64,000 bases of DNA from a virus. Under the pieces are notes generated by a model. It had not been told where the DNA came from. It searched no databases and was given only the letters and a program-made list of their open reading frames with translations. Of this stretch, positions 1 to 15,934 are shown one piece after another. The position numbers and the translations under genes are program-made. Numbering within the stretch: position 1 is the stretch's first letter; each line of letters starts with the position of its first letter. The DNA lies in the IMG/VR virus record IMGVR_UViG_3300045988_067909. One strand, given 5' to 3'.

Positions 1-367
1 GCATCAAAATATATGTCAACTAAATAGAGCTATTGCTGAAGTCGCAAGAGAGTTTATGGAAGACTGGAAATATAATACTTCTGGAATCTACAATAAGAAG
101 ATTAAAAAGAATATTGTAGAGTCTACTAGTATTATGAATAGTCTTTATAATAAGCTTAAAAGAACCTATACTATTACTGACGGAAATAGGCCAACCGTTA
201 AGTCTTTTATGACAGCATATGGTAGAGATTATATTTGTGAGCGCAAAGAGCCTCCTGAAAAGTTGAGAAAACTATATGAAAGATTTAGAATGATTCTCGG
301 AGGAAACAATGGAAAACTTTACAACAGTGTACAGCAAACCACAAGCTGTAACAATGCTACTGACTAA
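1..367 (+). CDS. hypothetical protein, 5'-truncated at window edge
   Basis: ORF 56..367 stays open in frame back to nt 2 (no stop), so the gene probably starts upstream of the window. Overlaps the next gene by 59 nt in another frame. No recognisable motif. Confidence 0.4.
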   Translation, partial: HQNICQLNRAIAEVAREFMEDWKYNTSGIYNKKIKKNIVESTSIMNSLYNKLKRTYTITDGNRPTVKSFMTAYGRDYICERKEPPEKLRKLYERFRMILGGNNGKLYNSVQQTTSCNNATD

Positions 368-1661
368 TGATTGTAACTTAGCATGTAGCTACTGCTTTGA
401 ATCTAATAAGGGTAAAGACTATATGCCAAAAGAAATGGCATTAGATATTCTTAAGGCTACATACAACCAAGTAGACCCAATGGCTGGTATATTCACTTTA
501 AACATGTTTGGTGGAGAACCATTAATGAATTGGGAGACTTTTAAAGCTGTATGTGATTATGTCTTAGAGAATAACCTTAAGATTCGTATTACTGCAACAA
601 CTAACCTGACTTTACTTACTGATGAAATGATTGATTATATCGATGAGCTATCTATTCCTGTATTAGTATCTGTAGATGGTATCAAAGAAGTTCATGATAA
701 GCATAGATGTAATAGTTTCGATAAAGTTATTGAGAATATGAAAAAGCTTATTGATAGAGACTTAGGATATCTTATTGAAGCACGTATGACAGTTGCTCCA
801 GATACAGCTAAATATATGTATGAATCAGTTAAGATGCTAGTTGACTTAGGTATTAATAATATTGCTAATGTACCAGCATCTGACTTAGAATGGGATGCTC
901 AATCTATTCAAGATTACAAAGATAATTACGAGAAGATTCTTGATATGTATATCGATATACTGAACGATGAATCTAATAAACGTAATATCTCTCTATATAA
1001 AGTAGACCAAGCATTAAATCTAGCATTAGAGCCTATTAAAGAAGATACTTCTATGTGTAATATTGGCAACCCTAGATGGGTTATTGTAGACTGGAAAGGT
1101 GATATTTGGCCTTGTCCTGATTATCCGACTACAGATAATGTAGATTTGATTGCTGGTAAGATTGGCAACTTCTATACTGGTGTAGATGAAACTAAAGTTG
1201 ACCCTAAGCCTATGGTTGCTACATATGAACTAGAACGTTGTAAGGGATGTGAAGCTATCTCTATTTGTAAGTCTGGTTGTCCTTATGAGAACTATACTAA
1301 GAATGGTAAGTTTAATGAACCAACCATTGGTTACTGCACTTTACAGAAAGCTTTTGTAGAAATCATTAAAGCTTATCAAGATAAGTTACTTGAAGCAACT
1401 AATATCCGTTCTAGACAGCTAAATGTCTTAATTGAAAATCTTAAAGTCAAGAAGTACTATGATGAGAAAGTTAAGACTATTAGTATTACTGATAGAGAAT
1501 TTGGCGTAAGATTAAATCATTTCGTTGAGAAGTATGAGAATCTAAATAATAAAGGTAATGTATTACCTAGTTTTGATACATATTTTAAACATGAGCTAAT
1601 GACTGTGAATGCTATTATTGCAGCATTGGTTGGTAAAAAAGTTGAGTTTGTGGAGGATTAA
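309..1661 (+). CDS. radical SAM enzyme with C-terminal SPASM domain (protein/peptide-modifying maturase family)
   Basis: RBS GGAGGAAACA before ATG 309. CxxxCxxC (CNLACSYC) at nt 372-395. Gly-rich 'MFGGEPL' SAM-binding motif. C-terminal 7-8 Cys including the canonical SPASM CxxCx5Cx3C (CKGCEAISICKSGC, nt 1239-1280). No N-terminal RRE-like extension. Confidence 0.85.
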   Translation: MENFTTVYSKPQAVTMLLTNDCNLACSYCFESNKGKDYMPKEMALDILKATYNQVDPMAGIFTLNMFGGEPLMNWETFKAVCDYVLENNLKIRITATTNLTLLTDEMIDYIDELSIPVLVSVDGIKEVHDKHRCNSFDKVIENMKKLIDRDLGYLIEARMTVAPDTAKYMYESVKMLVDLGINNIANVPASDLEWDAQSIQDYKDNYEKILDMYIDILNDESNKRNISLYKVDQALNLALEPIKEDTSMCNIGNPRWVIVDWKGDIWPCPDYPTTDNVDLIAGKIGNFYTGVDETKVDPKPMVATYELERCKGCEAISICKSGCPYENYTKNGKFNEPTIGYCTLQKAFVEIIKAYQDKLLEATNIRSRQLNVLIENLKVKKYYDEKVKTISITDREFGVRLNHFVEKYENLNNKGNVLPSFDTYFKHELMTVNAIIAALVGKKVEFVED

Positions 1662-1667
1662 TTTTAC

Positions 1668-3386
1668 ATGCCAACACAAGTAAAAAGAGGGAATACTGTT
1701 GAATACAGTATTCCCGATAAAATAGACAGAACCAAAGATAATATAGTAGCTAAAGCACCATTAGTTGCTATAGCTAGTGCAATAGCTGTCAATCTTAAAG
1801 AAGCTAAAGCATTAGAACGTGTACGATCTGGTTTTGGTTCTCCGGAGAATCGTATACGACGTGTAGTTGATGCTGGTGATGAAGTACAACGATTTAGTGA
1901 TAGTATCGTTATAGATGAATCACTTAAAGCATCTAGTATGAATATGCTATTAGGTATGGCATCTGAATTGATAAACAGTACAGTTGGTATTAGTGAATCA
2001 ATGGAGGGATATACTGTAGTTAAATATACCACACCTGGTAGATTTACTTGGAATGCTCCTAGGGGGACTAAGACAGTATTACTAGGTTTATGTGGTGGTG
2101 GTGGATCCATGGGTGCTAGTGGTGAATCTACGAGTTTCAATGAAGCCATTGTTAATGGTGGTAATAATATCTTTATTGATAACTTGCTAGCTGGTGTAAC
2201 TGGTTATCAAGTATCTTTATTTGAAAGCAGATTTGGTTACTATGGTAGACCAGAATCTTCTACTGATTGGTATACTAATCGTTCTGGTATGCACTGGGGT
2301 AGACAGAACTCGGGATTACCTGGTGATTTTATGACTACAGTTTTAAACGTTAAAAGTGGTTCTGCTCAATCTATTGTAGTCGGTGGTCCTGGTGCACCAA
2401 GATGGTATGGTGATGCTAATAGAAAATCTACTCAAGGGTTTGTATACTTAGCATATAAAACAGATGGTGATGATGAACCATATGGTTTAGATAAAGTATA
2501 TACTGTACCTGGCGACTATGAATATACAGTACCAGCAGGTGTACGTAAAATATCTGTAGTCTTAATTGGTGGTGGTGCATTTACTATTAGTGGTACTGTC
2601 GAAAATAAAGTTGAAATCTATGAATATATGGGTCGCTATATCAAACAAGGTGATTTTAGAAATTTCCCAGCTCAAAGCTATAAGCATCTAGATAGAGTTC
2701 TTGATGAATTAAACTATACTGGACCATTTACTAGATATGATAATCCACGTCAAGGTAGTTGGAAACAAACTAGATATAGGGCTCCACATAATTACCAAGT
2801 AGTAGGCTATATTCCATCACACTTACCTGGTGCTAATGGTGAACAATCTAAGTTTGGTGATATCGTAGCTAATGGTGGCGACCGAGATAATATCTCTTAC
2901 ACCACAGATACTGGTTGGAATCTTAATTTTGATGCACAAACAGGACCAACAGGGCGTGGTATGTTTAAAGATAGCATTAACCAAAAAGTTGGCGGTCCAG
3001 GTGAATATAAACGTGTAGTATTAGATGTATATCCTGGGCAAAAGTTTAATGTACATGTAGGACGTGGTGCAAAATACGAATCTGATGGTTCTTTTAAAGC
3101 TAGTGATGGTGCTGTTGGTATAATGAACGGTGATTATCGTGAAACGTCTAGTGGTTTATTTAGAGCTATGGCTCCGGGAGACTTGTATACTGGTGCGACA
3201 TTGAATCTTATGATTAGTAACTTACATGTTTTAAATAAAGCATTCAATGATTTAGAAAATAAGTATTGGGAAAATGACTTATGTAAGACATCTTGTCAAG
3301 TATCTTGCCAGGCTTCTTGTCAAATCGCATGTCAAAACTGTCAATATGATACTTGCCACAATCAAAATTGTGGGGGGTGGTCGTAA
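1668..3386 (+). CDS. 572-aa Gly-rich protein ending in a Cys-Gln ladder (CKTSCQVSCQASCQIACQNCQYDTCHNQNCGGWS); putative rSAM substrate
   Basis: ATG 1668 lies 7 nt after the rSAM stop. GGAGG RBS. Last 34 aa (nt 3282-3383) hold 8 Cys, 5 of them in a C-Q-x-x register. Internal GGGG/GGPGAP segments. Confidence 0.8.
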   Translation: MPTQVKRGNTVEYSIPDKIDRTKDNIVAKAPLVAIASAIAVNLKEAKALERVRSGFGSPENRIRRVVDAGDEVQRFSDSIVIDESLKASSMNMLLGMASELINSTVGISESMEGYTVVKYTTPGRFTWNAPRGTKTVLLGLCGGGGSMGASGESTSFNEAIVNGGNNIFIDNLLAGVTGYQVSLFESRFGYYGRPESSTDWYTNRSGMHWGRQNSGLPGDFMTTVLNVKSGSAQSIVVGGPGAPRWYGDANRKSTQGFVYLAYKTDGDDEPYGLDKVYTVPGDYEYTVPAGVRKISVVLIGGGAFTISGTVENKVEIYEYMGRYIKQGDFRNFPAQSYKHLDRVLDELNYTGPFTRYDNPRQGSWKQTRYRAPHNYQVVGYIPSHLPGANGEQSKFGDIVANGGDRDNISYTTDTGWNLNFDAQTGPTGRGMFKDSINQKVGGPGEYKRVVLDVYPGQKFNVHVGRGAKYESDGSFKASDGAVGIMNGDYRETSSGLFRAMAPGDLYTGATLNLMISNLHVLNKAFNDLENKYWENDLCKTSCQVSCQASCQIACQNCQYDTCHNQNCGGWS

Positions 3387-4561
3387 TGAAGATATTTATG
3401 ACAGATGAATTATATGACTATATTAAGACTCGACCAGATTTTAATGAATTCCAAACAGCTTATGATAAACTTACTTATGGTGAAACTATAAGAGAAGAGC
3501 TAGAAGCACAGTATAATTCTATGACTTCAGGAGAATTAGCTGAGTATCTTAATAAAGTCAAATCTGAAGTAGCAGATAGACCAGATTTAGTTAGATATAT
3601 AAACTATACATCTGATATATCAGTACAGACTCTAATGACTATAGTTAATGATACTAGTCTACCTAAAAAAGATAAGATGTATGCATTACTAAGATTATTC
3701 ACTTATAGTTATGCTGATGGTATCCATTTTGAATATGTAGTTGATTTTGTCACTATGTATAATGCTATGAGTGCTGAAGAGTTGGCTACATTACCTAGCT
3801 ATATTCATGTAAACTATATTGAATTGAATGGCTATTATTTGTATAAGACTATGCAAGATAACCATGAGACTTTCGATACAACTGCTTATGATAAACTAGT
3901 AGAGCATTATAAAACAGTCAAAGAGAAAGTTAAACCATATTATAGTGATGCTGATGTAATAGATAATATATGGCTTGAAGTCCAAGCTTACTTTATTAGA
4001 CTATTACATAATGACTTAACTAATACTGCTATAGATATCATCTTAGAACGTATTAATCTAGACCATGAAAAGCTAACCAATAAATACAAATATGTATCTT
4101 TAGGTGTCATGTGGCTATATGAAATGTATATGGAAACTAGTTTTAATGCTAGTAACTATCATGGGTTTATCTTATGGGCATTTAAACTATTTAGATATAT
4201 AGATAGTGCATTAGCTGATCATGATAACCTATTTGATGGTTTAAGATTCTATGATAAAGTTAATATTATAGCATTTGCTATTATAGTTAGACGTCTTCTT
4301 AATATTAAAGAAGTCTTCATTTCAATAGTTCAATTACGTTTATTTAACTTAGACTTTACTGATGAATTATTCTTAGCTGGTGAGGGTGTAACTAATGTAA
4401 ATCTTACATCTAAGCCATCTAGAGATGCTATGTTGTCTTTTAAGAATTACGTAGACGTATGGTTTAATAATAATAAGCCTAAGCTAATTCAGCTTAGAGA
4501 TGATTCGGCAACTATGGAAGACTTCCGTGCTATTATTCGTGATTACTTACATTCAGTCTAG
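3386..4561 (+). CDS. hypothetical protein (391 aa), partner gene inside the rSAM operon
   Basis: ATG at 3386 overlaps the upstream stop (TAATG). The track start 3353 is a TTG. No recognisable motif. Confidence 0.7.
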   Translation: MKIFMTDELYDYIKTRPDFNEFQTAYDKLTYGETIREELEAQYNSMTSGELAEYLNKVKSEVADRPDLVRYINYTSDISVQTLMTIVNDTSLPKKDKMYALLRLFTYSYADGIHFEYVVDFVTMYNAMSAEELATLPSYIHVNYIELNGYYLYKTMQDNHETFDTTAYDKLVEHYKTVKEKVKPYYSDADVIDNIWLEVQAYFIRLLHNDLTNTAIDIILERINLDHEKLTNKYKYVSLGVMWLYEMYMETSFNASNYHGFILWAFKLFRYIDSALADHDNLFDGLRFYDKVNIIAFAIIVRRLLNIKEVFISIVQLRLFNLDFTDELFLAGEGVTNVNLTSKPSRDAMLSFKNYVDVWFNNNKPKLIQLRDDSATMEDFRAIIRDYLHSV

Positions 4562-4577
4562 GAGGTGATAGTTAATT

Positions 4578-5780
4578 ATGGCAGATATAGAATTTAATAT
4601 GAATAACCGCTATAGATGGACTATCCCTGATATTCCATATGTAGTTAAGAAAGATAATAAAACAACAACTGAGATACCTAATAATGTAGATATAGCTTTT
4701 GATAGACACTTTGTGGATACTACAGTACGTGGATTAGTAGAATCCTATCAAACTTGTGTAGCTATATATGCTGAAATGAAACAGTTGTCATATAATCCAA
4801 CTGTAGATGCTAAGGGTAGAAACTATTGGGAATCTAGTACACCAAAGTATCAACAAAACCAAGAAGCTAATATAGATACAGATCACTCTAATAAGATGAA
4901 CTTTAACAATCCATCTTCTGGAGATCATTTACATCCATCTCGTATTGTAGATCTAAATCAACTATTATCTTCTAGTACACAGGTAGAGAGTAATACATTA
5001 GAGAATATATTAGACTTCTATGGTGTATATCATCCAAGTATTGGTGGTGGGTCTACTAATATAACTGAACGTATCGTTTTAAGTAATGATAATGCAGAGC
5101 CACCTAAGATGGAACTTGTAGATGCATTTAGAGATGCTAATGGTAATACTAAGTTCCCAGCTAGAACTGATGGTCAAAGTTATAATCAACCAATTAAACT
5201 AGAATGGTTTGCTAGACTTAGAGAGAATCTAATTAATACATCTAACTTCTTCATTAAGAATAATGGTAAGTTTTATGATGTAAATGGATATTGTGTTGTA
5301 GGATGTCAAGTAAACTGTCAGTCCACATGTCAATTGACTTGTCAACATAGACAATTGGGTGATGATTTCTTAAATAAAACATTCTTAGAGTGGAATGAAG
5401 ATCTACAAACTATATACAAACTAGGTTGGCAAACATATGACCACCCAGACCATGACCATAATGTATACATATTCTTCTATGACCCATGGGGTAGACGTTG
5501 GATGTATCGTAATACTAGATACTATGGAGATGGTTATTATCTATTACCAGATCAAAATGATATATACTCTATACGTCCTACACATCATGCGGATGATAAC
5601 ATGAATCTAGAGTGGTATCCTGGTGCGCCATATGATAACCCTAAACAATATCATTGGGAGATGGTACGTAATATACATACAGGTAAAAATGACTTGGTTA
5701 ATAAACTAGACCCACATTGGAATGATGCTGGTAATTACTATGTATCAGATGGTTATTGCCATAGCTGTGATAATAGATAG
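4578..5780 (+). CDS. 400-aa protein with internal Cys-Gln ladder CVVGCQVNCQSTCQLTCQ; putative rSAM substrate, paralog A
   Basis: Perfect RBS GGAGGTGATAGTTAATT-ATG. Ladder at nt 5292-5345. His/aromatic-rich C-terminal half (HPDHDHN, WYPGAP). Confidence 0.8.
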   Translation: MADIEFNMNNRYRWTIPDIPYVVKKDNKTTTEIPNNVDIAFDRHFVDTTVRGLVESYQTCVAIYAEMKQLSYNPTVDAKGRNYWESSTPKYQQNQEANIDTDHSNKMNFNNPSSGDHLHPSRIVDLNQLLSSSTQVESNTLENILDFYGVYHPSIGGGSTNITERIVLSNDNAEPPKMELVDAFRDANGNTKFPARTDGQSYNQPIKLEWFARLRENLINTSNFFIKNNGKFYDVNGYCVVGCQVNCQSTCQLTCQHRQLGDDFLNKTFLEWNEDLQTIYKLGWQTYDHPDHDHNVYIFFYDPWGRRWMYRNTRYYGDGYYLLPDQNDIYSIRPTHHADDNMNLEWYPGAPYDNPKQYHWEMVRNIHTGKNDLVNKLDPHWNDAGNYYVSDGYCHSCDNR

Positions 5781-5796
5781 GAGGTGATAGTTAATT

Positions 5797-6921
5797 ATGG
5801 CAGATATAGAATTTAATATGAACGATCGCTATAAATGGACTATCCCTGATATCCCATATATAGTGAAGAAAGATAACAAAATCACTACAGAAATCCCAGC
5901 TGATGTAGATATAGCTTTTGATAGACACTTTGTGGATACTACTGTACGTGGATTAGTAGAATCCTATCAAACTTGCGTAGCTATATATGCTGAGATGAGT
6001 CAGCTGGTATATAATCCACAAACCAACCGTCAAGGTAATAACTACTGGGATGGCAATAATAGATTTAGACAAAACCAAGAGAATAATGTAGACTTAGACC
6101 ATGCTAATAAGATGAACTTTACTAATCCACATAAAGAACCACATAGTTCAGGTACACGTATAGCAAATCTAAATTCTATACTCAATGATCCAGATGGTGT
6201 TAGAGAAGATAATCTAGAATCTATACTAGATTATTATAGAACCTATAATTCTGATACTAATGGTGGTATATCTGTAGACTTGTCTATGAATATATTAAAT
6301 AATGGATTAAAAGCAGAAGCACCAGCATATATACAAGTAGATGCATTTAGAGATGCTAATAGCAATACTAAATTCCCTGCTAGAACTGATGGTCAAAGCT
6401 ATAATCAACCTATAAAATTGGAATGGTTTGCTAGACTACGTGAGAATCTCATTAATACATCTAACTTCTTCATTAAGAATAATGGTAAGTTTTATGATAA
6501 TGGTGGTTTCTGTGTTATAGGTTGTCAGGTTAACTGTCAATCTACATGTCAATTGACCTGCCAGCATAGACAGCTAGGTGACGATTTCTTAAATTATACT
6601 AAGCTTGAACGTTATGAGCATGCTGAGATTATTAAGAAATTAGGTTGGCCAGACTTCCGTGGACGTAATGGTAATGAGTCATTAAACTATTATGACCCCT
6701 GGGGACGTATATGGCGTTGGTATGTATTTGCTAAACAAGGTTATGGTGCATACTATTTAGGTCATGAACCGCATGACAATTATTGGTATTTTGAAAATAA
6801 TATCGGTTGGTATCCTGGTGCTCCGTTTGATAGACCTGCTGGTGTAAACCCAGATGGTAGCATACCAACACCAAAACGTGATCCTGATTATGATCCTTGT
6901 GCTGGTTGTGAAAATAGATAG
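5797..6921 (+). CDS. 374-aa paralog B of the preceding gene, with Cys-Gln ladder CVIGCQVNCQSTCQLTCQ
   Basis: Identical RBS/leader sequence (ggaggtgatagttaattatggcagatatagaatttaatatgaa). N-terminal ~60 aa about 90% identical to paralog A. Ladder at nt 6511-6564. Divergent middle and C-terminal regions. Confidence 0.8.
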   Translation: MADIEFNMNDRYKWTIPDIPYIVKKDNKITTEIPADVDIAFDRHFVDTTVRGLVESYQTCVAIYAEMSQLVYNPQTNRQGNNYWDGNNRFRQNQENNVDLDHANKMNFTNPHKEPHSSGTRIANLNSILNDPDGVREDNLESILDYYRTYNSDTNGGISVDLSMNILNNGLKAEAPAYIQVDAFRDANSNTKFPARTDGQSYNQPIKLEWFARLRENLINTSNFFIKNNGKFYDNGGFCVIGCQVNCQSTCQLTCQHRQLGDDFLNYTKLERYEHAEIIKKLGWPDFRGRNGNESLNYYDPWGRIWRWYVFAKQGYGAYYLGHEPHDNYWYFENNIGWYPGAPFDRPAGVNPDGSIPTPKRDPDYDPCAGCENR

Positions 6922-6926
6922 AATAT

Positions 6927-7967
6927 ATGAATAACGATTATAAAGAAATATACCTAATGCTTACTGAGGCTTGCCCTAATAGATGTGAGTATTGTTATAT
7001 TAAGGGTAGAGATAACCCTAAGAGTATGACATTTGAACAGATTGAAGAAATAATACGTGTAGAAAAACCTACACGTATTATATTCTTTGGTGGTGAACCA
7101 TTGCTCAAGATAGATCTAATAGAGCAAGTATTAGAGAAGTATTATGGTAAGATTAAATTCCAAGTAGTCACATCTACTGTAGTTAATTTTAAAGAGTTTA
7201 TTGAATTAGATAAGAAGTATCCATTTAGTGAGATACAGTTATCATGGGATGGTTTCTCAGATAAGAACCGTGTTGATACTTGTGGTAATTCTATATCTAA
7301 GACAGTATATGACAATATCCAATATGCTATATCTCAAGGAACTAAGTTTGATGTAAAGTGTGTTATTGGTAATGAGAATATACAAATCTTTGATGAGATA
7401 CATGAGACTTTCGTAGAATGGAAGAAGAAGTATAATGTCAATGGTGAGTTTGTATTAGCACATAGACCATACTATGCACCAGAATATTTAGAGTTATTCC
7501 GTGAGAAGTATAAGAAGACATTCACTCTAGAGAGAATGTATATGGAACATATGAATCGTATTATAGCTATCTTACAAGATGATGATAACTTTGGTTCATG
7601 TGATGTCGGTAAGTATAAGGTTATTACACCATATGGTGAAGAATCTTACTGTACAGCATTATCTCAAGAAGAGACTGAGTTTGATAAGGATATCTTACAA
7701 GCACCATGTACATCTCCAGATTGTAAGATATGTAAATACAAATGTATTTGTGATGGTGGGTGTAGATATGAACGCTATGCTCAGTTTGGTGATAAGTGGA
7801 GAGAAAACCACTTAGATGCTACATGTCAAATGTCTGAAATCATATATACTACTATTAGAGAATGGATAGACTCTTTAGATGATGATGACTATGAAAAACT
7901 ATTAGCTTACGTTAGAAGCTATAAAGATCATTTAGAACGATACCATCAGGAGGTTACTCACGAATGA
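6927..7967 (+). CDS. radical SAM/SPASM enzyme 2
   Basis: CxxxCxxC (CPNRCEYC) at nt 6972-6995. 'FFGGEPL' motif. C-terminal CKICKYKCICDGGC fits the SPASM CxxCx5Cx3C. Confidence 0.8.
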   Translation: MNNDYKEIYLMLTEACPNRCEYCYIKGRDNPKSMTFEQIEEIIRVEKPTRIIFFGGEPLLKIDLIEQVLEKYYGKIKFQVVTSTVVNFKEFIELDKKYPFSEIQLSWDGFSDKNRVDTCGNSISKTVYDNIQYAISQGTKFDVKCVIGNENIQIFDEIHETFVEWKKKYNVNGEFVLAHRPYYAPEYLELFREKYKKTFTLERMYMEHMNRIIAILQDDDNFGSCDVGKYKVITPYGEESYCTALSQEETEFDKDILQAPCTSPDCKICKYKCICDGGCRYERYAQFGDKWRENHLDATCQMSEIIYTTIREWIDSLDDDDYEKLLAYVRSYKDHLERYHQEVTHE

Positions 7968-9214
7968 TTGACTTTTTACCTGAGCGTATATATAACGCTA
8001 TTAAAGAAGACCAAGAATATGAAAATATCTTAATGTATAGAGAGAATGAATTCCGTAAGCTAATTACGTTCAAAGAATTCTGTCTATATGATAACGTCTT
8101 CATTAAGAATAAAACAAAATGGGAATACTTTACTGGGACTTTACAGAGCCTGGTTAAAAAGTATTGTCCAGAATATATGACTGAACTAGATATTGCTATC
8201 TCTCCTAGGAAAACTAGAGCAGATTATCTCAATATCTACTACAATGATACTAAGATTGACTTTGAAACTAAGCTATTCGTATTATCTAAAATAGCTGATA
8301 TGTCTAAGTATAAAGATGATTACTTTAACTATCTTGGTATGTATTGTAACTTATATGAAAATATTGCTAAGTCTGATGCAGAGAAATACTCTGCTATCAT
8401 TCATTATACATATATACAATATGCTACATTAGCATATGCTAAGACATTGCCTAAAGATTCACAATGTATCTTTAAGATTAAGAAATATCTAGATACATTA
8501 CGTTTTGGATATGGTAATTTATCTGCTGATGCTTTAAACGTTATCTATATCAATACTTTTGTACAATGTATCACATTAGTTCTAGAAGAACTTGAGAATG
8601 ATATGTTAGTTAAAGAGATGCTAGATGATGTACAGTTACCAGAATCACTATTTGAAGTCCAATATGGTAACTATGGTATTACTAGATTAGCATTATGGTA
8701 TAAACTATTTGAGATTAATTTCTCAGTACGAGACTTTGCTAAATGTAAAGAGCTATTCAATAAGATGGTAGATTTAATTGATGGTAATCTTAAAGAACCA
8801 CAATTACTATTCCGTGGTTTATACGTATATAACCAAAATAATATTCCATATTTTTATGGGATATTAAGATTCGTATGTCGAATGCTCGGTGCATATGACC
8901 CAACTCTTACATTATCTAATCTCTCCGAAGAAGATAAACAATTTATCTCCATATATGATTGGGATTCTAGTGACCTATTGATTTCTGATAGACTTACTTC
9001 GGAGATATTCTATAACTATGCTCTTAGAACTAACTTATGGTTCTATAATTCTGCTGAAGCACTTAAAGCATATAAATATTTCGTTTATGAACAAGCTGGA
9101 TTAGAATTACCATCCGAAGATAGAATTCTTAAACCATTAGATGATTTCTTAAGTTCTTTCTTAGATGATGAACCAGCTGAAGAAGTTGTACCAAACCCTA
9201 AGGGTGATAAGTAA
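7964..9214 (+). CDS. hypothetical protein (416 aa), second partner gene in the rSAM operon
   Basis: ATG 7964 overlaps the upstream stop. RBS CAGGAGGT. No motif recognised. Confidence 0.7.
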   Translation: MIDFLPERIYNAIKEDQEYENILMYRENEFRKLITFKEFCLYDNVFIKNKTKWEYFTGTLQSLVKKYCPEYMTELDIAISPRKTRADYLNIYYNDTKIDFETKLFVLSKIADMSKYKDDYFNYLGMYCNLYENIAKSDAEKYSAIIHYTYIQYATLAYAKTLPKDSQCIFKIKKYLDTLRFGYGNLSADALNVIYINTFVQCITLVLEELENDMLVKEMLDDVQLPESLFEVQYGNYGITRLALWYKLFEINFSVRDFAKCKELFNKMVDLIDGNLKEPQLLFRGLYVYNQNNIPYFYGILRFVCRMLGAYDPTLTLSNLSEEDKQFISIYDWDSSDLLISDRLTSEIFYNYALRTNLWFYNSAEALKAYKYFVYEQAGLELPSEDRILKPLDDFLSSFLDDEPAEEVVPNPKGDK

Positions 9215-10392
9215 TGTATGATCGTATAGATGCGGTTACATTTAAGATATCTGAATATTGTAATCTAGACTGTGTATACTGTTTTCAAAAATATGATACT
9301 AAGACTAGATATGATGGGTTTACTGATTTTGATCAGCTAGTTAAGTTCTTAAGAAAGATGCCATTAGGGGATACTTTAGAATTCAAAGTTACTGGTGGAG
9401 AATCTAGTCTTCATTGTGATAAGATTAGAAGTGCTTATAGAAAGCTTAAGAAACTAGAGCGTTATAAGAACGTAAACATAGAGTTTACGACCATTTCTAA
9501 TGGCACCAATATAGATGGGTTGACAGAACTCTGGAATGATGGTATACTAAATCCATGGGGATGTAAGATATCCTGGGATGGGGTTTATAGTGCATCTAAA
9601 TCACGTAAAGTAAAAAATAATTCTTATGATGATGAGTATTTTAAAGATATCATTCGTAAGCTAGGTAAGTCTGACTATAGAGATAAAGTCTTAGTTAGAA
9701 CTGCTTTAACACCAGATACTGTAGACGAACTATATCAAGCATATAGATTTGCTATAGATAATGGCTGTACTAAATGGGAATATTATTTACTTAGTGATTG
9801 TGATGAATACAAAGATCCAAAGTTCATAGAGAGACTAAGACCACAACTATATCATATATACAATGATAGTAAAGACTTTCCTGAATCTATTGTAGCTAAT
9901 CTAGATTCTATGGCTTATGTACATACAGACTTATCTGATGCTACAAAGTTAAGATGTATTAGCTGTAGACATCTTGGTCATTTCTTGCATATAGATATAC
10001 ATGGTAATATATACCCTTGTGGATACTTCTCTGATGATTCCTATTATGATGACCAAACATTATCTATAGGGGACATTTACTCGGGTTTAGATAAATATAA
10101 ATTAGAGAAGTTTTGTGATGAGTATAATAATCTTCCCATGTGTAGCATACAAGATGGGTGTGAATGTTTACATTGTTTTGAATGTCCTGCTATTAGTCAC
10201 CTATACTACAACAATATGCAGTATAAGCTAGGACAACAATGTAAGATTAGACACTTAGAACTAGACTTGTATAGAGAGATATTCTCAGACTACACATTCG
10301 ATATGTCTCGTATACAAAGAAACTTTAATGTGTATAATGAACTTGAGTACCACAAGTGTGGATTATGTGAATCCCTTCCATTCAAAGAATAG
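9214..10392 (+). CDS. radical SAM enzyme 3 with a Cys-rich twitch/SPASM-like C-terminus
   Basis: TAATG overlap start. CxxxCxxC (CNLDCVYC) at nt 9259-9282. 'VTGGESS' motif. C-terminal CISCRH...PCGY...CSIQDGCECLHCFECP cysteine cluster. Confidence 0.8.
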   Translation: MYDRIDAVTFKISEYCNLDCVYCFQKYDTKTRYDGFTDFDQLVKFLRKMPLGDTLEFKVTGGESSLHCDKIRSAYRKLKKLERYKNVNIEFTTISNGTNIDGLTELWNDGILNPWGCKISWDGVYSASKSRKVKNNSYDDEYFKDIIRKLGKSDYRDKVLVRTALTPDTVDELYQAYRFAIDNGCTKWEYYLLSDCDEYKDPKFIERLRPQLYHIYNDSKDFPESIVANLDSMAYVHTDLSDATKLRCISCRHLGHFLHIDIHGNIYPCGYFSDDSYYDDQTLSIGDIYSGLDKYKLEKFCDEYNNLPMCSIQDGCECLHCFECPAISHLYYNNMQYKLGQQCKIRHLELDLYREIFSDYTFDMSRIQRNFNVYNELEYHKCGLCESLPFKE

Positions 10393-10418
10393 TATATTTT
10401 TATTTCGGAGGGACTTAT

Positions 10419-10571
10419 ATGACCAAATTAGATAGAGAGCTCAGACGTGCAGTAATTAAAGGTAAGATCCTTAGTACGGCTAAAACTATCATTGTAAATC
10501 CTAAGTTTTTAAGAATAGTTCCTAAAATAATTTCTGTTATCTTTAGACTACTTAAGAAAAGATTTTTGTAA
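10419..10571 (+). CDS. small basic protein (50 aa, MTKLDRELRRAVIKGK...IISVIFRLLKKRFL), not in the ORF track
   Basis: GGAGGG RBS 7 nt upstream of the ATG. Followed directly by a hairpin terminator. No Cys, so it is not a precursor peptide. Confidence 0.35.
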   Translation: MTKLDRELRRAVIKGKILSTAKTIIVNPKFLRIVPKIISVIFRLLKKRFL

Positions 10572-10587
10572 TAAAGAGACGTTATAA

Positions 10588-10615
10588 TCCATGGGTGACC
10601 AACCCATGGATTTTT
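10588..10615 (+). terminator. intrinsic terminator ending the rSAM operon
   Basis: tccatgggtgaccaacccatgga hairpin followed by TTTTT. Confidence 0.7.
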
Positions 10616-10660
10616 AACACTCTTATAATTTGAACAAATTCTTTCATTGGAGGTAATATA

Positions 10661-12121
10661 ATGGCAAAACTACATGATACCAGTGTAACTGGTAATATTA
10701 ATGCCTCGGGTACTATATATGCTAATGGTAAGGCAGTTGCACCATTAGATCATACTCATTCAGTACAAGCTATAACTGGTTTAGACAAATCAGTAAAAGA
10801 TATAGTAAACGCTACACCTGTAGCTAATGCAACAAATGCAACACAATTAGCAGGTAAGACAGCAGACCAATATGCACTAAAGAGTGATTTAACTGCTTTA
10901 GGTGAACGCTTAAATCAAATTCAGTATTCTATAACTAAAGCATTTAAGTGTCCTAACTACGTATCTTTTAGTTACGATAATAACTTTGTTAAAATTACAT
11001 TGAGTGATAGAATGGCTAATATCACAAATAAAGCAATTATTGTCGAAGATGATACTATGAAGTTTGTAATCAATTTATTTAGTCAATCCAATTTTAGTCT
11101 CTATAATAAGATAATTATTAAAGATAAGGTTGATGTTGATAAATACTACGACTACAGTGTTACTATGCCTACCATATACAGAGTTTCTGATACTACTTTT
11201 ATTGTGGGTGGTATTTGTACAACTAACGGTAATTTATTAGCATCCATCACTCTACAAAGTAATGAACCAATCACTGCTGATGATTTTACTATTAGTGCTA
11301 GAGATCAAGCATATAATCTAAATAATGCAAGTGCCAAAAAGGTTGTATCTAGTAGAGATCTTATTCCTCACTTTGCCGAAAAGTATATAGATACACAAAA
11401 ATTTGGTTATCTATATACTATTAAAAAACCAGGTACTTATGATAGACGTTTAGATCTTCATTTAGACTCTACAACTTCTACTGTATATATTTATACTTTA
11501 AATCCTATGAGTAATATGGCTTTAGGGGTTAATGGTAATGGTATAGTTTCATATAATGCTGCAAATGTTAGAAATGAACCTAGCGTTGCAATTAGCGGAC
11601 TAACTGTATATATTGACTTATCCACAATATCAGATGATTTTGTTATTTTGGGTGATTGTACTGCTACTTATAGCACAACAGGTTTGCTCAGCTCTACTCC
11701 ACCAAAAGATCTACCACAATCTATGGGTAGTAGTATTGATGAAAACCGTGCGTTATCTTTCAATAAAGTCTTAGATTTATTGGGTCGTAGTGTAACCATT
11801 AATGGTGCGATTTACGATACTAAATATGATATAAATATAAACAGATTATTGACATTTCCTGCAACGTATATTAATGACCAATCAGTCACTATAGGCAGCA
11901 TGTATAATACTATTACAGCTAGAGCTAATGGTGGTAACGCTGATACAGTTGGTGGATTATCACCTAACTCGTTTATCACTACTGATAATTTAGCACGTAA
12001 ATACTACTCTAAAGTTGCAGTATACGACAATGATAATCATCTTATTCATCCAGATGGTACTGAAGAATGGATCGAATATCAAAGACCACAAGCGTCTGAA
12101 GATAATATGGATCACTTATAA
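10661..12121 (+). CDS. tail-fibre-like / receptor-binding-like structural protein (486 aa)
   Basis: Strong RBS GGAGGTAATATA. The N-terminus (MAKLHDTSVTGNINASGTIYANGKAVAPLDHTHS...LAGKTADQYALKSDLTAL) resembles phage fibre N-terminal/coiled-coil anchoring domains. Sits directly upstream of a giant structural gene. Confidence 0.6.
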   Translation: MAKLHDTSVTGNINASGTIYANGKAVAPLDHTHSVQAITGLDKSVKDIVNATPVANATNATQLAGKTADQYALKSDLTALGERLNQIQYSITKAFKCPNYVSFSYDNNFVKITLSDRMANITNKAIIVEDDTMKFVINLFSQSNFSLYNKIIIKDKVDVDKYYDYSVTMPTIYRVSDTTFIVGGICTTNGNLLASITLQSNEPITADDFTISARDQAYNLNNASAKKVVSSRDLIPHFAEKYIDTQKFGYLYTIKKPGTYDRRLDLHLDSTTSTVYIYTLNPMSNMALGVNGNGIVSYNAANVRNEPSVAISGLTVYIDLSTISDDFVILGDCTATYSTTGLLSSTPPKDLPQSMGSSIDENRALSFNKVLDLLGRSVTINGAIYDTKYDININRLLTFPATYINDQSVTIGSMYNTITARANGGNADTVGGLSPNSFITTDNLARKYYSKVAVYDNDNHLIHPDGTEEWIEYQRPQASEDNMDHL

Positions 12122-12133
12122 TAGGAGACTATT

Positions 12134-15100: not shown

Positions 15101-15934
15101 GCAGACTTGAGTGATGTTATATTAAAGACATCTACAATTAAAAGCTTTGCTCATGCATTTAATGAGTTTAGTGGTAAATTTCCAAAGAATATAGATTTAA
15201 CCAGCGGTTCTAATTTTGAATCGTTATTCTATAATACTAATTTGGATAATATAACTATGGATAGCTTTGTAGATAGTACATATGTAGCCACAACTAGAGA
15301 AAGTGATAGATTGACAATGTCTTCGATGTTTACTACATTTACAGGACGTGATATATCATTCGATGTATGGGGCTTTCTAGTTAAAAAAGTAAAACTATTA
15401 GAGAAGCTCAAATCCTATGCATATGTAAATTTATATAGTATGCTAACTTATGTTCGAAGTATACCATTCTTTAGTTTTTATGAAATATATATGGCAGTTG
15501 CTGATGAAAAGTTCTATAACTTATCAGCTCGTGGAAATTTAGGTATTAATGGTATTGCAAATACTGCTACGTTTAAAGAACTAGAAATGCCTATACTTAC
15601 TGACAGTAACGGTCAGCTTAATAGAAAATTTTCATTGGATGCTTGTAATACAAACGGTATCGGTAAATTAGTATTTAGACAACCACCAAATCAAAATATA
15701 GCATCTATAGATTCGCTCAAGGTATCTATAACCGATATTAGATATTGTGGTGATTTTATTACTAAAAATAAACCAGAGTCAAATACTTATAAACTACCAA
15801 CTACTATTGTAGTTAGACTTCTTAGAGACAAAACTTCAATACCAGAAACAACTGAATCTATTGAAGCTATTAAGACTTTCTTAAACGCTACATACGCTAC
15901 ACCAAAAGAAAATATCTCTGTTATTTTTGAATAA
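12134..15934 (+). CDS. large virion structural protein (1266 aa), probably a tail/fibre component
   Basis: RBS TAGGAGACT. Begins MAKLTD like the preceding gene. Contains an 'LCGGGNG' segment similar to the 572-aa Cys-Gln protein. No enzymatic motif. Confidence 0.7.
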   Translation: MAKLTDIKYVISASGRREEISLYTTKEEAGDICKGFKLPDGTKAYAAIGDTKSRLATMKRFKIQGKVYAALTEAEKKKTKVKKVYIFKAGSHRFKVPFWAKKVHYTLCGGGNGIISTNAPILDTIEKDGITDNKSIMMARKVNDVMYATIPYMGRSIMGTPSSMYVEKEFEGDPDSGYETYTGTDETRSINTASRVYNNWRGDESSWIMQTTDNKSKGFSVYQADASVYNNMGQHIETTPVVTRKKVVIAPTMINPDIVDDTNYDNLVDSILVGLPLPPPMGPVENEGEYVRLTAIKDDASFTVYNKGFKALYNVYPKSDMVKITDISKFINDTMAKYKVNLVDKDIYHDEDNSLMVNSFINQAYIYNTYTPFDKLYSAGIAMYNDGSTPPSRTDSLIQSTYDTAFNQFKAKSTEYKQRYDNVTYYMRKQFLNGTMFDYDYMMQLKEAGTLDNMINSSMLSNMDLVDGAYDFATGHHTSPKLSETRLGAKEVIFDIQCLDGVVRPLSIKYGGSLVLGWDKYFDDAYCYDIEDIDIYRAEEFTKLFNPLSGNIVPNPLEGQEITGTWDVSPDEDIVIEVGTHGKLYTEDMGFKLNKYFHDRDADGICILEVEGDFEDIDDIDNYINDNIRSLTPDHYNQMVMLDPISRDMYQRYLKYINNYSGDIDLSAQDTFTVKRSAASPAFVSNLKLVDGMATDKNINLYYSSRTQKVESLPKSSDYTIKVFGYDIGKTTDLSLFHNYIGAYDGVKMDIAEDLISNLSEYVNYSGNVYQSVIPVRNYYADKEHTFIFKNANTISYAFMLGVIDSGHTPKVKLNYNKALDVTGALIFTNTQELDYRWYVSLGLYINPSTAKNINVNERMTISFPNENAIKNKKVKIFKPWATYDQSKAYVKYIVPKDYTAKSIIGIVPLLDKSIDNVYIDITNLKDEPYTISPIVSSTLNKLPNVHIIDNSGIAERKFNGLFGYAKKNYLGAVTLAPTVMDNFARSSSADLSDVILKTSTIKSFAHAFNEFSGKFPKNIDLTSGSNFESLFYNTNLDNITMDSFVDSTYVATTRESDRLTMSSMFTTFTGRDISFDVWGFLVKKVKLLEKLKSYAYVNLYSMLTYVRSIPFFSFYEIYMAVADEKFYNLSARGNLGINGIANTATFKELEMPILTDSNGQLNRKFSLDACNTNGIGKLVFRQPPNQNIASIDSLKVSITDIRYCGDFITKNKPESNTYKLPTTIVVRLLRDKTSIPETTESIEAIKTFLNATYATPKENISVIFE

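What the first reader, a model, noticed from the sequence alone, without database searches (positions are those of the whole stretch)
1..10616. Phage operon with three radical-SAM/SPASM enzymes paired with three large Cys-Gln-ladder proteins
Seen directly: three rSAM enzymes (309-1661, 6927-7967, 9214-10392) each have CxxxCxxC, and two carry a canonical SPASM CxxCx5Cx3C. They interleave with three large proteins (572, 400 and 374 aa) that each contain a strict C-Q-x-x-C-Q-x-x-C-Q-x-x-C-Q ladder. There are also two unknown partner proteins and a small basic ORF. All genes are translationally coupled and one terminator closes the operon. Established knowledge: SPASM/twitch rSAMs install thioether and other crosslinks on Cys-containing substrates (sactipeptides, ranthipeptides, QhpD Cys-to-Asp/Glu crosslinks in a 9-kDa protein, anSME). 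They normally act on short leader-containing peptides. Inference: a one-to-one enzyme-to-substrate arrangement acting on about 45-65-kDa proteins, in a phage and next to the tail-fibre genes, suggests enzymatic covalent crosslinking (Cys to Gln/other carbon thioethers) of virion or secreted proteins. I am not aware of a described equivalent. None of the rSAMs has an N-terminal RRE-like extension, which fits a folded-protein substrate or a separately encoded recognition partner.
Basis: partly seen in the sequence, partly recalled or inferred. Interest (0 to 1): 0.92.

Follow-up and report, generated by a model that had tools for sequence, protein, structure and literature searches.

The report
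Phage radical-SAM enzymes beside cysteine-ladder tail proteins
A giant phage carries a cluster of peptide-crosslinking radical-SAM enzymes that always sits beside large tail-fibre-like proteins ending in a conserved Cys-Gln "ladder", which suggests, without yet proving, that the phage chemically staples its own structural proteins the way bacteria staple small antibiotic peptides.

Summary
The described features are real: three radical-SAM (rSAM) genes, three proteins with a strict CQxxCQxxCQxxCQ ladder (3 hits, 0 expected), two unknown partner proteins, a small ORF and a closing hairpin.

- The window starts inside the operon. A 95.6%-identical relative has two more rSAM-family genes upstream, one lacking CxxxCxxC.
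- Close relatives have only one copy of the 400/374-aa pair.
- Other phages have 3-5 rSAMs for a single ladder protein.

What holds:
- All rSAMs match the thioether-forming ranthipeptide maturase PapB best (rSAM1 also CteB), but below every family cut-off. None has an N-terminal recognition domain.
- The ladder is a conserved, usually C-terminal module in 139 protein clusters out of 1.84 billion. Where the N-terminal parts are recognisable, they are tail or carbohydrate-binding domains.
- Every such gene with readable upstream DNA has an rSAM1-type gene directly upstream.
- Ladder-only proteins come with one rSAM. Ladder plus CH(N/D)QxCG knob comes with three to five.

Most likely the enzymes install thioether crosslinks in this module of tail-fibre-like proteins. 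The chemistry and virion location are inferred. I found no published description.

The parts
2..367 (+). 3' end of a 440-aa rSAM-like 'pseudo-rSAM' gene, cut by the window edge. The full gene lacks CxxxCxxC but keeps a CxxCx5CxxC cluster motif.
   Evidence: Frame 2 is open from base 2. The full gene is seen in L009 at 4468-5790, where PapB scores 69.7 bits. L009 is colinear with window 1-14083 at 95.6% identity.
309..1661 (+). rSAM1, a 450-aa radical SAM/SPASM enzyme. It has a full 7-Cys SPASM domain and a C-terminal extension of about 100 aa. This is the type always found directly upstream of ladder genes.
   Evidence: PF04055 at 3.6e-18. PapB scores 199 bits, below its cut-off of 340. CteB (5WGG) matches at 3e-24 over residues 12-352. 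Adjacency to ladder genes is shown.
1668..3386 (+). 572-aa ladder protein. It has two Gly-rich tail-type repeats in the N-terminal part. The C-terminal module (3183-3383) reads ...WENDLCKTSCQVSCQASCQIACQNCQYDTCHNQNCGGWS, which is ladder plus knob.
   Evidence: Sequence; ladder DNA match at 3294-3335. Weak Gly_rich_2 and PHROG tail hits. The module family has 139 clusters. NCBI nr holds it as DAV44765.1, named 'SCIFF'.
3386..4561 (+). Partner A, a 391-aa protein of unknown family, presumably all-alpha like its paralog partner B (not modelled itself) (start overlaps the stop of the 572-aa gene).
   Evidence: It is a distant paralog of partner B (21% identity, E 8e-7). It is conserved after the ladder gene in relatives. 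No Pfam, NCBIfam or PHROG hit.
4578..5780 (+). 400-aa ladder protein. The ladder module is internal (C239-Q256), followed by a variable C-terminal domain ending CxxC(D/E)N(R/K).
   Evidence: Alignment A1 shows CxxGCQxNCQSTCQLTCQHRQ invariant in 10 sequences. DNA match at 5304-5345. The family is tiny, 11 clusters.
5797..6921 (+). 374-aa ladder protein, a tandem paralog of the 400-aa protein. The N-terminal 260 aa are conserved and the C-terminal part is divergent.
   Evidence: 60% identity to the 400-aa protein. The gene is absent from relatives L010-L015.
6927..7967 (+). rSAM2, a 346-aa radical SAM/SPASM enzyme. Its orthologs occur only in loci whose ladder protein carries the terminal knob.
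   Evidence: PF04055 at 3.1e-18. PapB scores 58.6 bits. Cys pattern. Orthologs in L139, L150 and L153.
7964..9214 (+). Partner B, a 416-aa all-alpha protein, possibly a TPR-like helical repeat.
   Evidence: AF2 pLDDT 58, all helices. The best Foldseek hits are TPR proteins but none is significant, E >= 0.066. Only close homologs were found.
9214..10392 (+). rSAM3, a 392-aa radical SAM enzyme with a non-canonical Cys-rich SPASM-like C-terminal region.
   Evidence: PF04055 at 2.1e-12. PapB scores 88 bits. Cys pattern. Orthologs in L139, L150 and L153.
10419..10571 (+). Small basic 50-aa ORF with a good Shine-Dalgarno site; function unknown.
   Evidence: Conserved at 58-96% amino-acid identity across the clade.
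10586..10612 (+). Terminator-like hairpin (11-bp stem) followed by a U-run; it closes the operon.
   Evidence: Folds at -24.7 kcal/mol, z = -7. Sequence read.
10661..15934 (+). Two downstream genes (486 and 1266 aa). They are conserved neighbours and possibly fibre proteins, but this is unverified.
   Evidence: p486 homologs follow the rSAM cluster in L021, L036, L048 and L092. No family hits.

Best explanation
The region is most of a late operon of a ~260-kb jumbo phage. The operon encodes a dedicated maturation system for a Cys-Gln ladder module carried by large tail-fibre-like or receptor-binding-like proteins.

**The module.** It is about 60 aa long:
- a helix-like stretch;
- an aromatic-aromatic-D-x-x-G-(Y/F)-C segment;
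- C-x3-(C-Q-x-x)3-C-Q;
- usually a terminal knob, x-C-x4-C-H-(N/D)-Q-x-C-G, at the very C-terminus.

**Proposed mechanism (inferred, not shown).**
1. The PapB/CteB-like rSAM1-type enzyme binds a ladder Cys thiolate on its auxiliary Fe-S cluster.
2. It abstracts a side-chain hydrogen from a neighbouring residue.
3. This forms a run of small thioether rings. The conserved Gln (rarely Glu, Ala, Asn or Met) is the obvious acceptor, for example in QxxC units analogous to NxxC.
4. The rSAM2- and rSAM3-type enzymes, with the two helical partner proteins, add further modifications specific to the knob.
5. The pseudo-rSAM and/or the partners may take over the substrate recognition that an RRE domain provides in RiPP systems.

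**Expected result.** A covalently stapled fibre module whose thioether staples, unlike disulfides, would not be opened by reduction.

**Shown.** Gene content, family affinities, strict co-location, and the scaling of rSAM number with module complexity.

**Inferred.** Thioether chemistry, Gln as acceptor, the division of labour among the enzymes, and virion location.
For: **Enzyme class**
- PapB (NF047865) is the top NCBIfam hit for rSAM1, rSAM2 and rSAM3 (199, 58.6 and 88 bits) and for the two upstream genes (165 and 69.7 bits).
- It is also the top or near-top hit for ladder-adjacent rSAMs in unrelated contigs L064, L144, L149, L150 and L154 (132-208 bits).
- rSAM1 aligns to CteB over the core plus SPASM domain. 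It has the 7-Cys SPASM pattern.

**Co-location**
- Every terminal-module protein with readable upstream DNA has an rSAM1-type gene directly upstream (about 35 loci). The low-complexity pattern matches have none.
- Four sequence-unrelated groups of ladder proteins all have an adjacent rSAM: the window family, L064, L144 and L154.

**Dose relation**
- Ladder-only proteins have one rSAM, of the rSAM1/rSAM0 type.
- Ladder-plus-knob loci have 3-5 rSAMs, including rSAM2- and rSAM3-type orthologs.

**Module conservation**
- 139 clusters out of 1.84e9 carry the module, 99 of them at E <= 1e-10.
- The Cys residues are invariant. Position +1 is Q in 73% of units, with occasional E, A, N or M.

**Substrate type**
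- Recognisable N-terminal domains are Gly_rich_2, CBM_5_12 and F5/8-C.
- The annotated PHROG matches are only tail categories.

**Chemical precedent**
- NxxcB makes a Cys-Asn beta-thioether in NxxC motifs and tolerates Gln (PMC9389541).
- PapB links Cys to Asp or Glu with spacings of 0-6 residues (PMC9413430).
Against: - No experimental or mass-spectrometry evidence exists.
- All enzymes score below the curated cut-offs of PapB, SCIFF, QhpD and the CXXX families, so the chemistry could differ.
- The Pfam SPASM model gave no hit at E <= 0.1 for the window enzymes.
- Tail-fibre identity rests on sub-threshold or minority domain hits. Most of the 133 representatives have no recognisable N-terminal domain.
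- PapB itself needs a carboxylate acceptor, and Gln has none.
- Structure prediction of the 400-aa protein failed (pLDDT 34.7), so the fold of the ladder is unknown.
- The partner-protein fold match is not significant.
- The loci showing co-location are largely related phages, so the number of independent observations is smaller than the number of loci.
Confidence: 0.6

Rival explanations
1. The ladder is modified by the rSAMs, but with different chemistry. Possibilities are alpha-carbon (sactionine) thioethers, Cys-to-formylglycine oxidation as by anSME, epimerisation, or C-C/ether crosslinks. Acceptors could be residues other than Gln.
For: All enzymes fall below every equivalog cut-off. They also match sactipeptide, cyclophane and anSME models at lower scores. 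Three to five different rSAMs per module suggests more than one reaction type.
Against: The top hits are consistently the non-alpha thioether enzymes PapB and CteB. The invariant residues are Cys plus an adjacent Gln, and I saw no aromatic or basic residue conserved within the ladder repeat itself. This pattern fits a thiol donor and a side-chain acceptor.
Confidence: 0.15
2. The system is a phage-encoded RiPP pathway. The C-terminal ladder-plus-knob is the core peptide, and it is cut off and released after modification as a toxin, signal or anti-competitor peptide. The large N-terminal part acts as an oversized leader or carrier.
For: The module lies within 20 aa of the C-terminus in 113 of 123 representatives. 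It weakly resembles SCIFF and CXXX RiPP precursors. NCBI's third-party annotation even calls the 572-aa protein SCIFF.
Against: No protease or exporter gene was detected among the operon genes scanned in the window or among the Pfam-annotated genes of L139, L150 and L153. The N-terminal parts are tail, CBM, LamG or discoidin-type domains of up to more than 1000 aa. The 400/374-aa type has the ladder in the middle of the protein. Some proteins carry 24-58 ladder units, which looks like a rod and not a peptide.
Confidence: 0.12
3. The ladder is not an rSAM substrate. It is instead a metal-binding, Fe-S-binding or disulfide-stapled structural element of a fibre. The neighbouring rSAMs then serve another purpose, such as modifying another protein or a small molecule, and are merely co-expressed.
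For: Eight closely spaced Cys residues could bind metals or form a cystine knot without any enzyme. From my own memory, not tested here: some phage tail-tip proteins bind Fe-S clusters, and T4 fibre tips bind iron. Multi-rSAM clusters without ladders exist in other large phages: Ralstonia RP12 and Campylobacter phages.
Against: Adjacency of an rSAM1-type gene to ladder genes is strict across four sequence-unrelated groups of ladder proteins. The number of rSAM types scales with module complexity. The enzymes belong to the peptide-maturase branch. The near-invariant Gln next to each Cys is not explained by metal binding.
Confidence: 0.1

Closest known systems
PapB/PapA (freyrasin) and CteB/CteA (SCIFF, thermocellin) ranthipeptide systems
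   Same: Both use a radical SAM/SPASM enzyme with a 7-Cys auxiliary-cluster domain. These are the best family and structure matches for the phage enzymes. Their substrates contain repeated Cys motifs that are converted into in-line thioether rings (PMC9413430).
   Different: - The phage enzymes score far below the family cut-offs (199 bits against 340).
- They lack the N-terminal RRE.
- Their substrates are 200-1300-aa proteins with tail-like domains, not leader-core peptides of about 50 aa.
- The residue next to each Cys is Gln, not Asp or Glu four residues downstream.
- Three to five enzymes act per module.
CXXX-repeat rSAM target systems of bacteria (NCBIfam TIGR04114, TIGR04115, TIGR04117, TIGR04118, TIGR04119)
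   Same: The concept is the same: a Cys-every-fourth-residue repeat encoded next to a SPASM rSAM maturase. Weak hits were found for the ladder (TIGR04114 13.4 bits, TIGR04118 13.9, TIGR04117 19.4) and for the enzymes (TIGR04115 113 bits; TIGR04119 50.6 for the L144 enzyme).
   Different: All scores are below the cut-offs (20, 35, 50, 350 and 150). Judging from the model descriptions and lengths returned here (46-98 positions), those families look like short bacterial peptides. I found no paper describing their chemistry. The phage module has a fixed Gln, a flanking helix and a terminal knob, and it sits on large structural-type proteins.
NxxcB/NxxcA (streptococcal NxxC RaS-RiPP)
   Same: It installs a thioether between Cys and the side-chain carbon of an amide residue three positions upstream. 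The enzyme tolerates Gln at that position (PMC9389541). The ladder contains three QxxC units.
   Different: No NxxcB model appeared among the matches that were listed (the lists were cut at 25 families). NxxcA is a short peptide under quorum-sensing control. The resemblance concerns the motif only.
QhpD/QhpC (quinohemoprotein amine dehydrogenase gamma subunit) and anSME/sulfatase
   Same: From my own knowledge, these are precedents for SPASM enzymes acting on a protein, not on a leader peptide. QhpD makes Cys-Asp/Glu thioethers in a ~9-kDa subunit, and anSME acts on full-length sulfatases. TIGR03906 is the fourth-best hit of rSAM1 (126.6 bits).
   Different: Scores are far below the cut-offs (453 and 349). 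No dehydrogenase or sulfatase context is present. The substrates here are phage tail-like proteins with a repeated ladder.
Multi-rSAM gene modules of large phages (Campylobacter CP220/CPt10, Ralstonia RP12/RP31)
   Same: Clusters of several SPASM-type rSAM genes in big phage genomes were noted as unexplained in 2010 and 2017 (PMC2853527, PMC5468394). In RP12 they lie next to virion structural genes. They share phrog_1802 with the window enzymes.
   Different: No Cys-Gln ladder protein is present in the RP12 or CJLB-14 neighbourhoods I read. Identity to rSAM1 is only 20-24%.

Membership tests
Radical SAM superfamily (PF04055) | CxxxCxxC cluster motif and a match to the core domain above the Pfam cut-off of 29.5 bits | tested here: met
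   The three enzymes score 66.7, 66.9 and 48.0 bits. The motif lies at residues 22-29, 16-23 and 16-23. The truncated upstream gene (window 2-367) lacks the motif in its full-length homolog.
SPASM subfamily of radical SAM enzymes | A C-terminal 7-Cys motif, C-x9-15-G-x4-C ... C-x2-C-x5-C-x3-C ... C, for two auxiliary 4Fe-4S clusters | tested here: met
   rSAM1 and rSAM2 meet it by direct reading, and full-length alignment to PapB and CteB covers the region. rSAM3 has the Gx4C element and seven or more Cys, but with non-canonical spacing.
SPASM subfamily of radical SAM enzymes | A hit to the stand-alone domain models PF13186 or TIGR04085 | tested here: inconclusive
   PF13186 is not reported at E <= 0.1 for any of the three enzymes. 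TIGR04085 is not among the 25 listed NCBIfam families, but those lists are truncated. Orthologs elsewhere do hit: L139 has a weak PF13186 match, and the L150 enzyme scores 47 bits on TIGR04085.
PapB family ranthipeptide maturase (NF047865, equivalog) | Whole-protein score at or above the curated cut-off of 340 bits | tested here: not met
   Scores are 199.2, 58.6 and 88.0 bits. PapB is the best match, but the enzymes are not members.
Ranthipeptide / RiPP maturase architecture | An N-terminal RRE (leader-recognition) domain on the enzyme and a short leader-core precursor peptide | tested here: not met
   Only 15-21 residues precede the CxxxCxxC motif. rSAM1 residues 12-352 align to CteB 97-444, so the RRE part is absent. 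The substrates are 374-572 aa here and 170-950 aa in the wider family.
Ranthipeptide / RiPP maturase architecture | The product contains a Cys-S to non-alpha-carbon thioether | not testable with these tools
   This needs mass spectrometry or NMR of the modified protein.
CXXX-repeat rSAM system (TIGR04115 enzyme, TIGR04114/04117/04118 targets) | Scores above the curated cut-offs: 350 for the enzyme and 20, 50 and 35 for the targets | tested here: not met
   Enzyme scores are 113, 35.6 and 41.9 bits. Target scores are TIGR04114 13.4 and TIGR04118 13.9 for the 400-aa protein, and TIGR04117 19.4 for the L064 ladder protein.
SCIFF six-cysteine peptide (PF13165 / TIGR03973) | Score above cut-off (27 / 50) and a peptide of about 45 aa | tested here: not met
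   The C-terminus of the 572-aa protein scores 15.9 and 14.1 bits. The public name 'SCIFF' for DAV44765.1 is therefore an over-call.
QhpD (TIGR03906) and anaerobic sulfatase maturase (TIGR03942) | Score above cut-off (453 / 349) | tested here: not met
   rSAM1 scores 126.6 and 86.1 bits.
Phage tail fibre / minor tail proteins | A recognisable tail-protein domain in the ladder proteins | tested here: inconclusive
   - The 572-aa protein scores 18.4 bits on Gly_rich_2, below the 24.3 cut-off. It has PHROG tail hits at 5e-5.
- Among 133 family representatives, 7 have Gly_rich_2 (best 3.6e-14), 9 match phrog_17517 'tail protein', 6 'tail fiber assembly', 5 'minor tail' and 2 'tail fiber'.
- The 400- and 374-aa proteins have no hits.
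Phage tail fibre / minor tail proteins | Presence in purified virions | not testable with these tools
   No cultured relative was found in the phage collection.

The most novel reading that the evidence does not exclude
Large phages use RiPP-type radical chemistry on their own structural proteins. A dedicated set of leaderless, RRE-less SPASM enzymes would install a ladder of Cys-to-Gln thioether staples in the C-terminal tip module of tail-fibre or receptor-binding proteins. A second set of crosslinks would go into the terminal knob. Some crosslinks might join different chains of a fibre. This would be the first enzymatic radical crosslinking of virion proteins and the first ranthionine-type ladder in a full-length protein. 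It would also begin to explain the multi-rSAM gene clusters noted in big phages since 2010.
Probability: 0.4. Interest if true: 0.9.

Novelty: new variant of a known kind. Interest (0 to 1): 0.78.

Why it matters
- **RiPP enzymology.** If the inference holds, thioether-forming radical SAM maturases would extend from short leader-containing peptides to large phage proteins that are probably structural. They would use a different substrate-recognition solution: no RRE, but a pseudo-rSAM and helical partner proteins. Gln would be a new acceptor residue.
- **Phage biology.** It would give a concrete, testable function to some of the unexplained multi-rSAM modules of big phages. It would also point to a new way of hardening receptor-binding tips in the anaerobic habitats that oxygen-sensitive radical-SAM enzymes imply.
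- **Engineering.** A compact (~40-60 aa), portable module that is enzymatically stapled could serve as a protein-stabilising tag.
- **Experiments.** The comparative data already identify a minimal system. One rSAM1-type enzyme plus a ladder-only protein (for example L149) makes the experiment straightforward.

Tried and rejected
**Searches that found nothing useful**
- A nucleotide search of the region and a tblastn of the 400-aa protein against 50,697 phage records found nothing. No cultured relative exists there.
- The genome-contig scan with rSAM1 gave one 97%-identical 5-kb contig binned as a Solobacterium MAG and two weak hits. This is not a reliable host call.
- Seven literature searches found no paper on rSAM-modified phage structural proteins or on the chemistry of CXXX-repeat systems. 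The library is incomplete, so absence is not proof. Haft & Basu 2011 could not be retrieved.

**Structure work**
- AF2 of the 400-aa protein with a 10-sequence alignment gave pLDDT 34.7, which is unusable.
- AF2 of partner B gave pLDDT 58 and an all-helical model. The Foldseek PDB search returned only non-significant TPR-like hits. I do not claim a fold.

**Leads that turned out false**
- The word-indexed profile search with the module returned only 12 fragments. A 93-aa 'precursor' among them was an artefact of a scaffold gap inside a ~520-aa gene.
- An apparent ladder-rSAM fusion in L143 was false. The CxxxCxxC and SPASM regex matches lay inside the Cys-rich ladder. The real rSAM lies 590 nt downstream.
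- About half of the viral-contig matches to the DNA pattern are low-complexity tandem repeats with no protein context and no rSAM. I excluded them.

**Other phages checked**
- Ralstonia RP12 and Campylobacter CJLB-14 rSAM neighbourhoods contain no Cys-Gln ladder. The ladder system does not explain all phage rSAM clusters.

**Tool limitation**
- The terminator scan did not report the closing hairpin. Folding showed it is real.

Full report
**1. The observation**

- All three enzymes match the Radical_SAM Pfam domain (66.7, 66.9 and 48.0 bits against a cut-off of 29.5). They carry CxxxCxxC at residues 22-29, 16-23 and 16-23.
- rSAM1 and rSAM2 have the complete 7-Cys SPASM pattern, including CxxCx5Cx3C. 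rSAM3 has a Cys-rich C-terminal region with Gx4C but non-canonical spacing.
- The ladder, back-translated as (TGYCARN6)x3TGYCAR, occurs three times in the window, at 3294, 5304 and 6523. No match occurred in 100 shuffles.
- Gene junctions are -59, 6, -1, 16, 16, 5, -4, -1 and 26 nt, with GGAGG-like sites before most starts.
- A hairpin at 10586-10612 plus a U-run folds at -24.7 kcal/mol, z = -7. The pattern scan missed it.
- The phage context is supported by PHROG hits to a phiKZ-type RNA polymerase beta subunit, DnaB-like and Dda-like helicases and a virion protein. Near-identical IMG/VR contigs of 257-267 kb support it too.

**2.

The window starts inside the operon.
- Frame 2 is open from base 2.
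- In L009, which is colinear with window 1-14083 at 95.6% identity, the '103-aa ORF' is the end of a 440-aa rSAM-like protein. That protein has lost CxxxCxxC but keeps a CxxCx5CxxC motif.
- Upstream of it lies a further 406-aa rSAM/SPASM gene. Both have PapB as their best NCBIfam match, at 69.7 and 165 bits.
- The operon therefore has five rSAM-family genes.

The ladder-protein count is not fixed.
- The 400- and 374-aa proteins are tandem paralogs. They share a conserved N-terminal 260 aa and an invariant ladder, CxxGCQxNCQSTCQLTCQHRQ, and they have divergent C-terminal domains.
- Relatives L010-L015 have only one copy.
- A one-to-one pairing of three enzymes with three substrates is therefore an artefact of the window edge and of a recent duplication.

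**3. Enzyme class**

- For every rSAM in the operon the best NCBIfam match is the PapB ranthipeptide maturase. Next come SCIFF/CteB-type, QhpD, the CXXX-repeat maturase (TIGR04115) and other peptide maturases. All are far below the curated cut-offs.
- rSAM1's best solved relative is CteB (5WGG/5WHY, 3e-24). The alignment runs from rSAM1 12-352 to CteB 97-444, which is the core plus SPASM without CteB's N-terminal RRE.
- rSAM2 and rSAM3 have no significant PDB relative by sequence.
That condition is not met.

**4. The ladder is a conserved module**

- Aligning the three window ladders with ladders from other viral contigs shows a common unit. It consists of a helix-like stretch, an aromatic-aromatic-D-x-x-G-(Y/F)-C segment, and then x3-CQxx-CQxx-CQxx-CQ.
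- In the 572-aa type this is followed by x-C-x4-C-H-(N/D)-Q-x-C-G-(GWS/TH) at the very C-terminus.
- An exhaustive HMMER search with this profile against 1.84 billion cluster representatives found 139 proteins at E <= 0.001 (99 at E <= 1e-10), 45-950 aa long (the shortest are fragments).
- In 113 of 123 representatives the ladder ends within 20 residues of the C-terminus. 100 of 133 have the CH(N/D)QxCG knob.
- Position +1 after each Cys is Q in 73% of units (E 6%, A 5%, N 3%, M 3%). Position +3 is small (S, A, T or G).
- The N-terminal parts are highly variable. Where recognisable they are Gly_rich_2 (7), CBM_5_12 (2) and F5/8 type C (2-3). The annotated PHROG matches are 'tail protein' (9), 'tail fiber assembly' (6), 'minor tail protein' (5) and 'tail fiber protein' (2). 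No other functional category appears.
- The only public name I found is a third-party 'Six-cysteine peptide SCIFF' for the 572-aa protein (DAV44765.1). That name is an over-call, because the protein scores 15.9 bits against a cut-off of 27.

**5. Co-location**

- In a scan of IMG/VR for the ladder DNA pattern, about half of the matches were low-complexity repeats with no protein context.
- The real ones were all flanked by homologs of the window's rSAMs.
- Systematically, every terminal-module protein with readable upstream sequence has an rSAM1-type gene directly upstream. This covers about 35 loci, many of them related. None of the junk matches has any rSAM.
- Longer C[QE]xx ladders occur in otherwise sequence-unrelated proteins on contigs of different G+C content. 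L064 has a 730-aa protein. L144 has a 1210-aa protein with a Laminin_G_3 domain (3e-27). L143/L154 has three proteins of 1373, 385 and 794 aa.
- Each of these also has an adjacent PapB-like rSAM. In L154 the rSAM is interrupted by an intein.

**6. A dose relation**

- Ladder-only proteins (L064, L144/L145, L149, L154) have a single rSAM, and it is of the rSAM1/rSAM0 type.
- Loci whose protein carries ladder plus knob have three to five rSAM-family genes. These include clear orthologs of rSAM2 and rSAM3. Examples are L139, L150 and L153, and L018/L048 and L092 with 4, L036 with 5, and the window clade with 5.
- In L153 and L036 the 400-aa-type proteins have their own rSAM1-like gene directly upstream.
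- The simplest reading is that rSAM1-type enzymes act on the ladder. The rSAM2/3-type enzymes, which travel with the two helical partner proteins, would act on the knob.

**7. Partner proteins**

- Partner A and partner B are distant paralogs (21% identity, E 8e-7). They have no family hits.
- The AF2 model of partner B is all-helical with modest confidence (pLDDT 58).
- Foldseek returns only TPR-like proteins, and none is significant (best E 0.066).
- A role as substrate-holding scaffold, replacing the missing RRE, is a guess.

**8. Mechanism**

The shown facts fit a maturation system in which SPASM enzymes of the thioether-forming branch modify a Cys-Gln module on large tail-like proteins. 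Chemical precedents:
- NxxcB links Cys to the beta-carbon of an Asn three residues upstream and tolerates Gln (PMC9389541).
- PapB links Cys to Asp or Glu at spacings of 0-6 residues. It makes in-line or nested rings and needs little beyond the two side chains (PMC9413430).

The ladder offers three QxxC units and two QxC units.

Against a simple PapB analogy, PapB needs a carboxylate, and all scores are below the family cut-offs. Nothing here demonstrates a crosslink.

Rivals:
- different rSAM chemistry on the same module;
- a released RiPP-like peptide;
- a metal-binding or disulfide-stapled ladder with unrelated rSAMs.

**9. Comparison and novelty**

- The closest known kinds are the PapB and CteB ranthipeptide systems and the bacterial CXXX-repeat rSAM target families (TIGR04114-04119). 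Neither the enzymes nor the ladders meet any of their thresholds.
- The RiPP hallmarks of leader peptide and RRE are absent.
- From my own knowledge, SPASM enzymes acting on proteins are known in QhpD/QhpC and anSME/sulfatase. Acting on a protein is therefore not unprecedented. A repeated thioether ladder on phage structural proteins would be.
- Multi-rSAM modules in big phages have been reported as unexplained (PMC2853527, PMC5468394). The RP12 and Campylobacter examples I read have no ladder.
- My literature searches found no description of this system. The library is incomplete.
- I rate it a new variant of a known kind. It is well supported as a conserved genetic system, and its chemistry and virion role are still to be shown.

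Noticed in passing
window 1-367; L009 3213-5790: The window starts inside a 440-aa rSAM-like gene that has lost its CxxxCxxC motif (a pseudo-rSAM) but keeps a CxxCx5CxxC motif. In the close relative a 406-aa PapB-like rSAM/SPASM gene lies just upstream, and a 205-aa protein upstream of that. The operon is therefore larger than the finding.
   Followed up: yes
L154 12973-15525 (same contig as L111/L143, IMGVR_UViG_3300035099_000047): An 851-aa radical SAM peptide-maturase gene is interrupted by an intein (intein N-terminal region 62 bits; an RtcB-related intein model 229 bits). It lies 590 nt downstream of three giant C[QE]xx ladder proteins of 1373, 385 and 794 aa.
   Followed up: partly
window 5713-6897 versus L010-L015: Relatives at 83-90% identity lack the 374-aa gene and have a single 400-406-aa ladder protein. 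The two window genes are thus a recent tandem duplication. Their C-terminal domains have diverged, as is usual for receptor-binding proteins.
   Followed up: partly
L149 2343-6451; L064; L144: Ladder proteins without the terminal CH(N/D)QxCG knob come with a single rSAM. Those with the knob come with 3-5. This suggests a division of labour among the enzymes and defines a minimal two-gene system for experiments.
   Followed up: yes
window 26741-28285 and 32088-50468 (minus strand): A phiKZ-type split RNA polymerase beta subunit is present (phrog_2987, 1.5e-63). There is also a run of five very large minus-strand ORFs (1944, 905, 926, 536 and 1766 aa). Of the two I tested, the 905-aa ORF had no PHROG match and the 536-aa ORF only weak matches to families of unknown function. 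No tRNA genes occur in the window. The phage is an uncultured jumbo phage of about 260 kb, seen on many public contigs (320 near-identical copies of the 572-aa protein).
   Followed up: no
L148 8757-10086 (Campylobacter phage CJLB-14): The SPASM rSAM of this cultured phage is immediately preceded by a 74-aa ORF ending ...FLACLTCLPKTKTKNKG. This ORF could be a small RiPP-like precursor. No Cys-Gln ladder is present.
   Followed up: no
L016 5902-11012 (Ralstonia phage RP12): Three rSAM genes lie next to two virion structural proteins with NPH...QVGLGN fibre repeats, followed by an ORF the RP12 authors annotated as MgoB-like (mangotoxin synthesis). A fourth ORF between them also carries a CxxxCxxC motif (CQAGCKIC). 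There is no ladder, so their target is unknown.
   Followed up: no
L140 (CALISH010000122.1): A 5-kb contig 97% identical to the rSAM1 / 572-aa region is binned in an uncultured Solobacterium MAG. This could hint at the host or be a binning artefact.
   Followed up: no
L150 11002-12699: In one ladder-plus-four-rSAM locus the cluster is followed by a fused glycosyltransferase-methyltransferase gene and a 1472-aa protein, and preceded by a collagen-like 538-aa protein. Further modification of the fibre proteins is possible.
   Followed up: no
window 10419-10571: The small basic 50-aa ORF after rSAM3 is conserved at 58-96% amino-acid identity across the clade and has a strong ribosome-binding site. 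It is probably a real gene of unknown role.
   Followed up: partly
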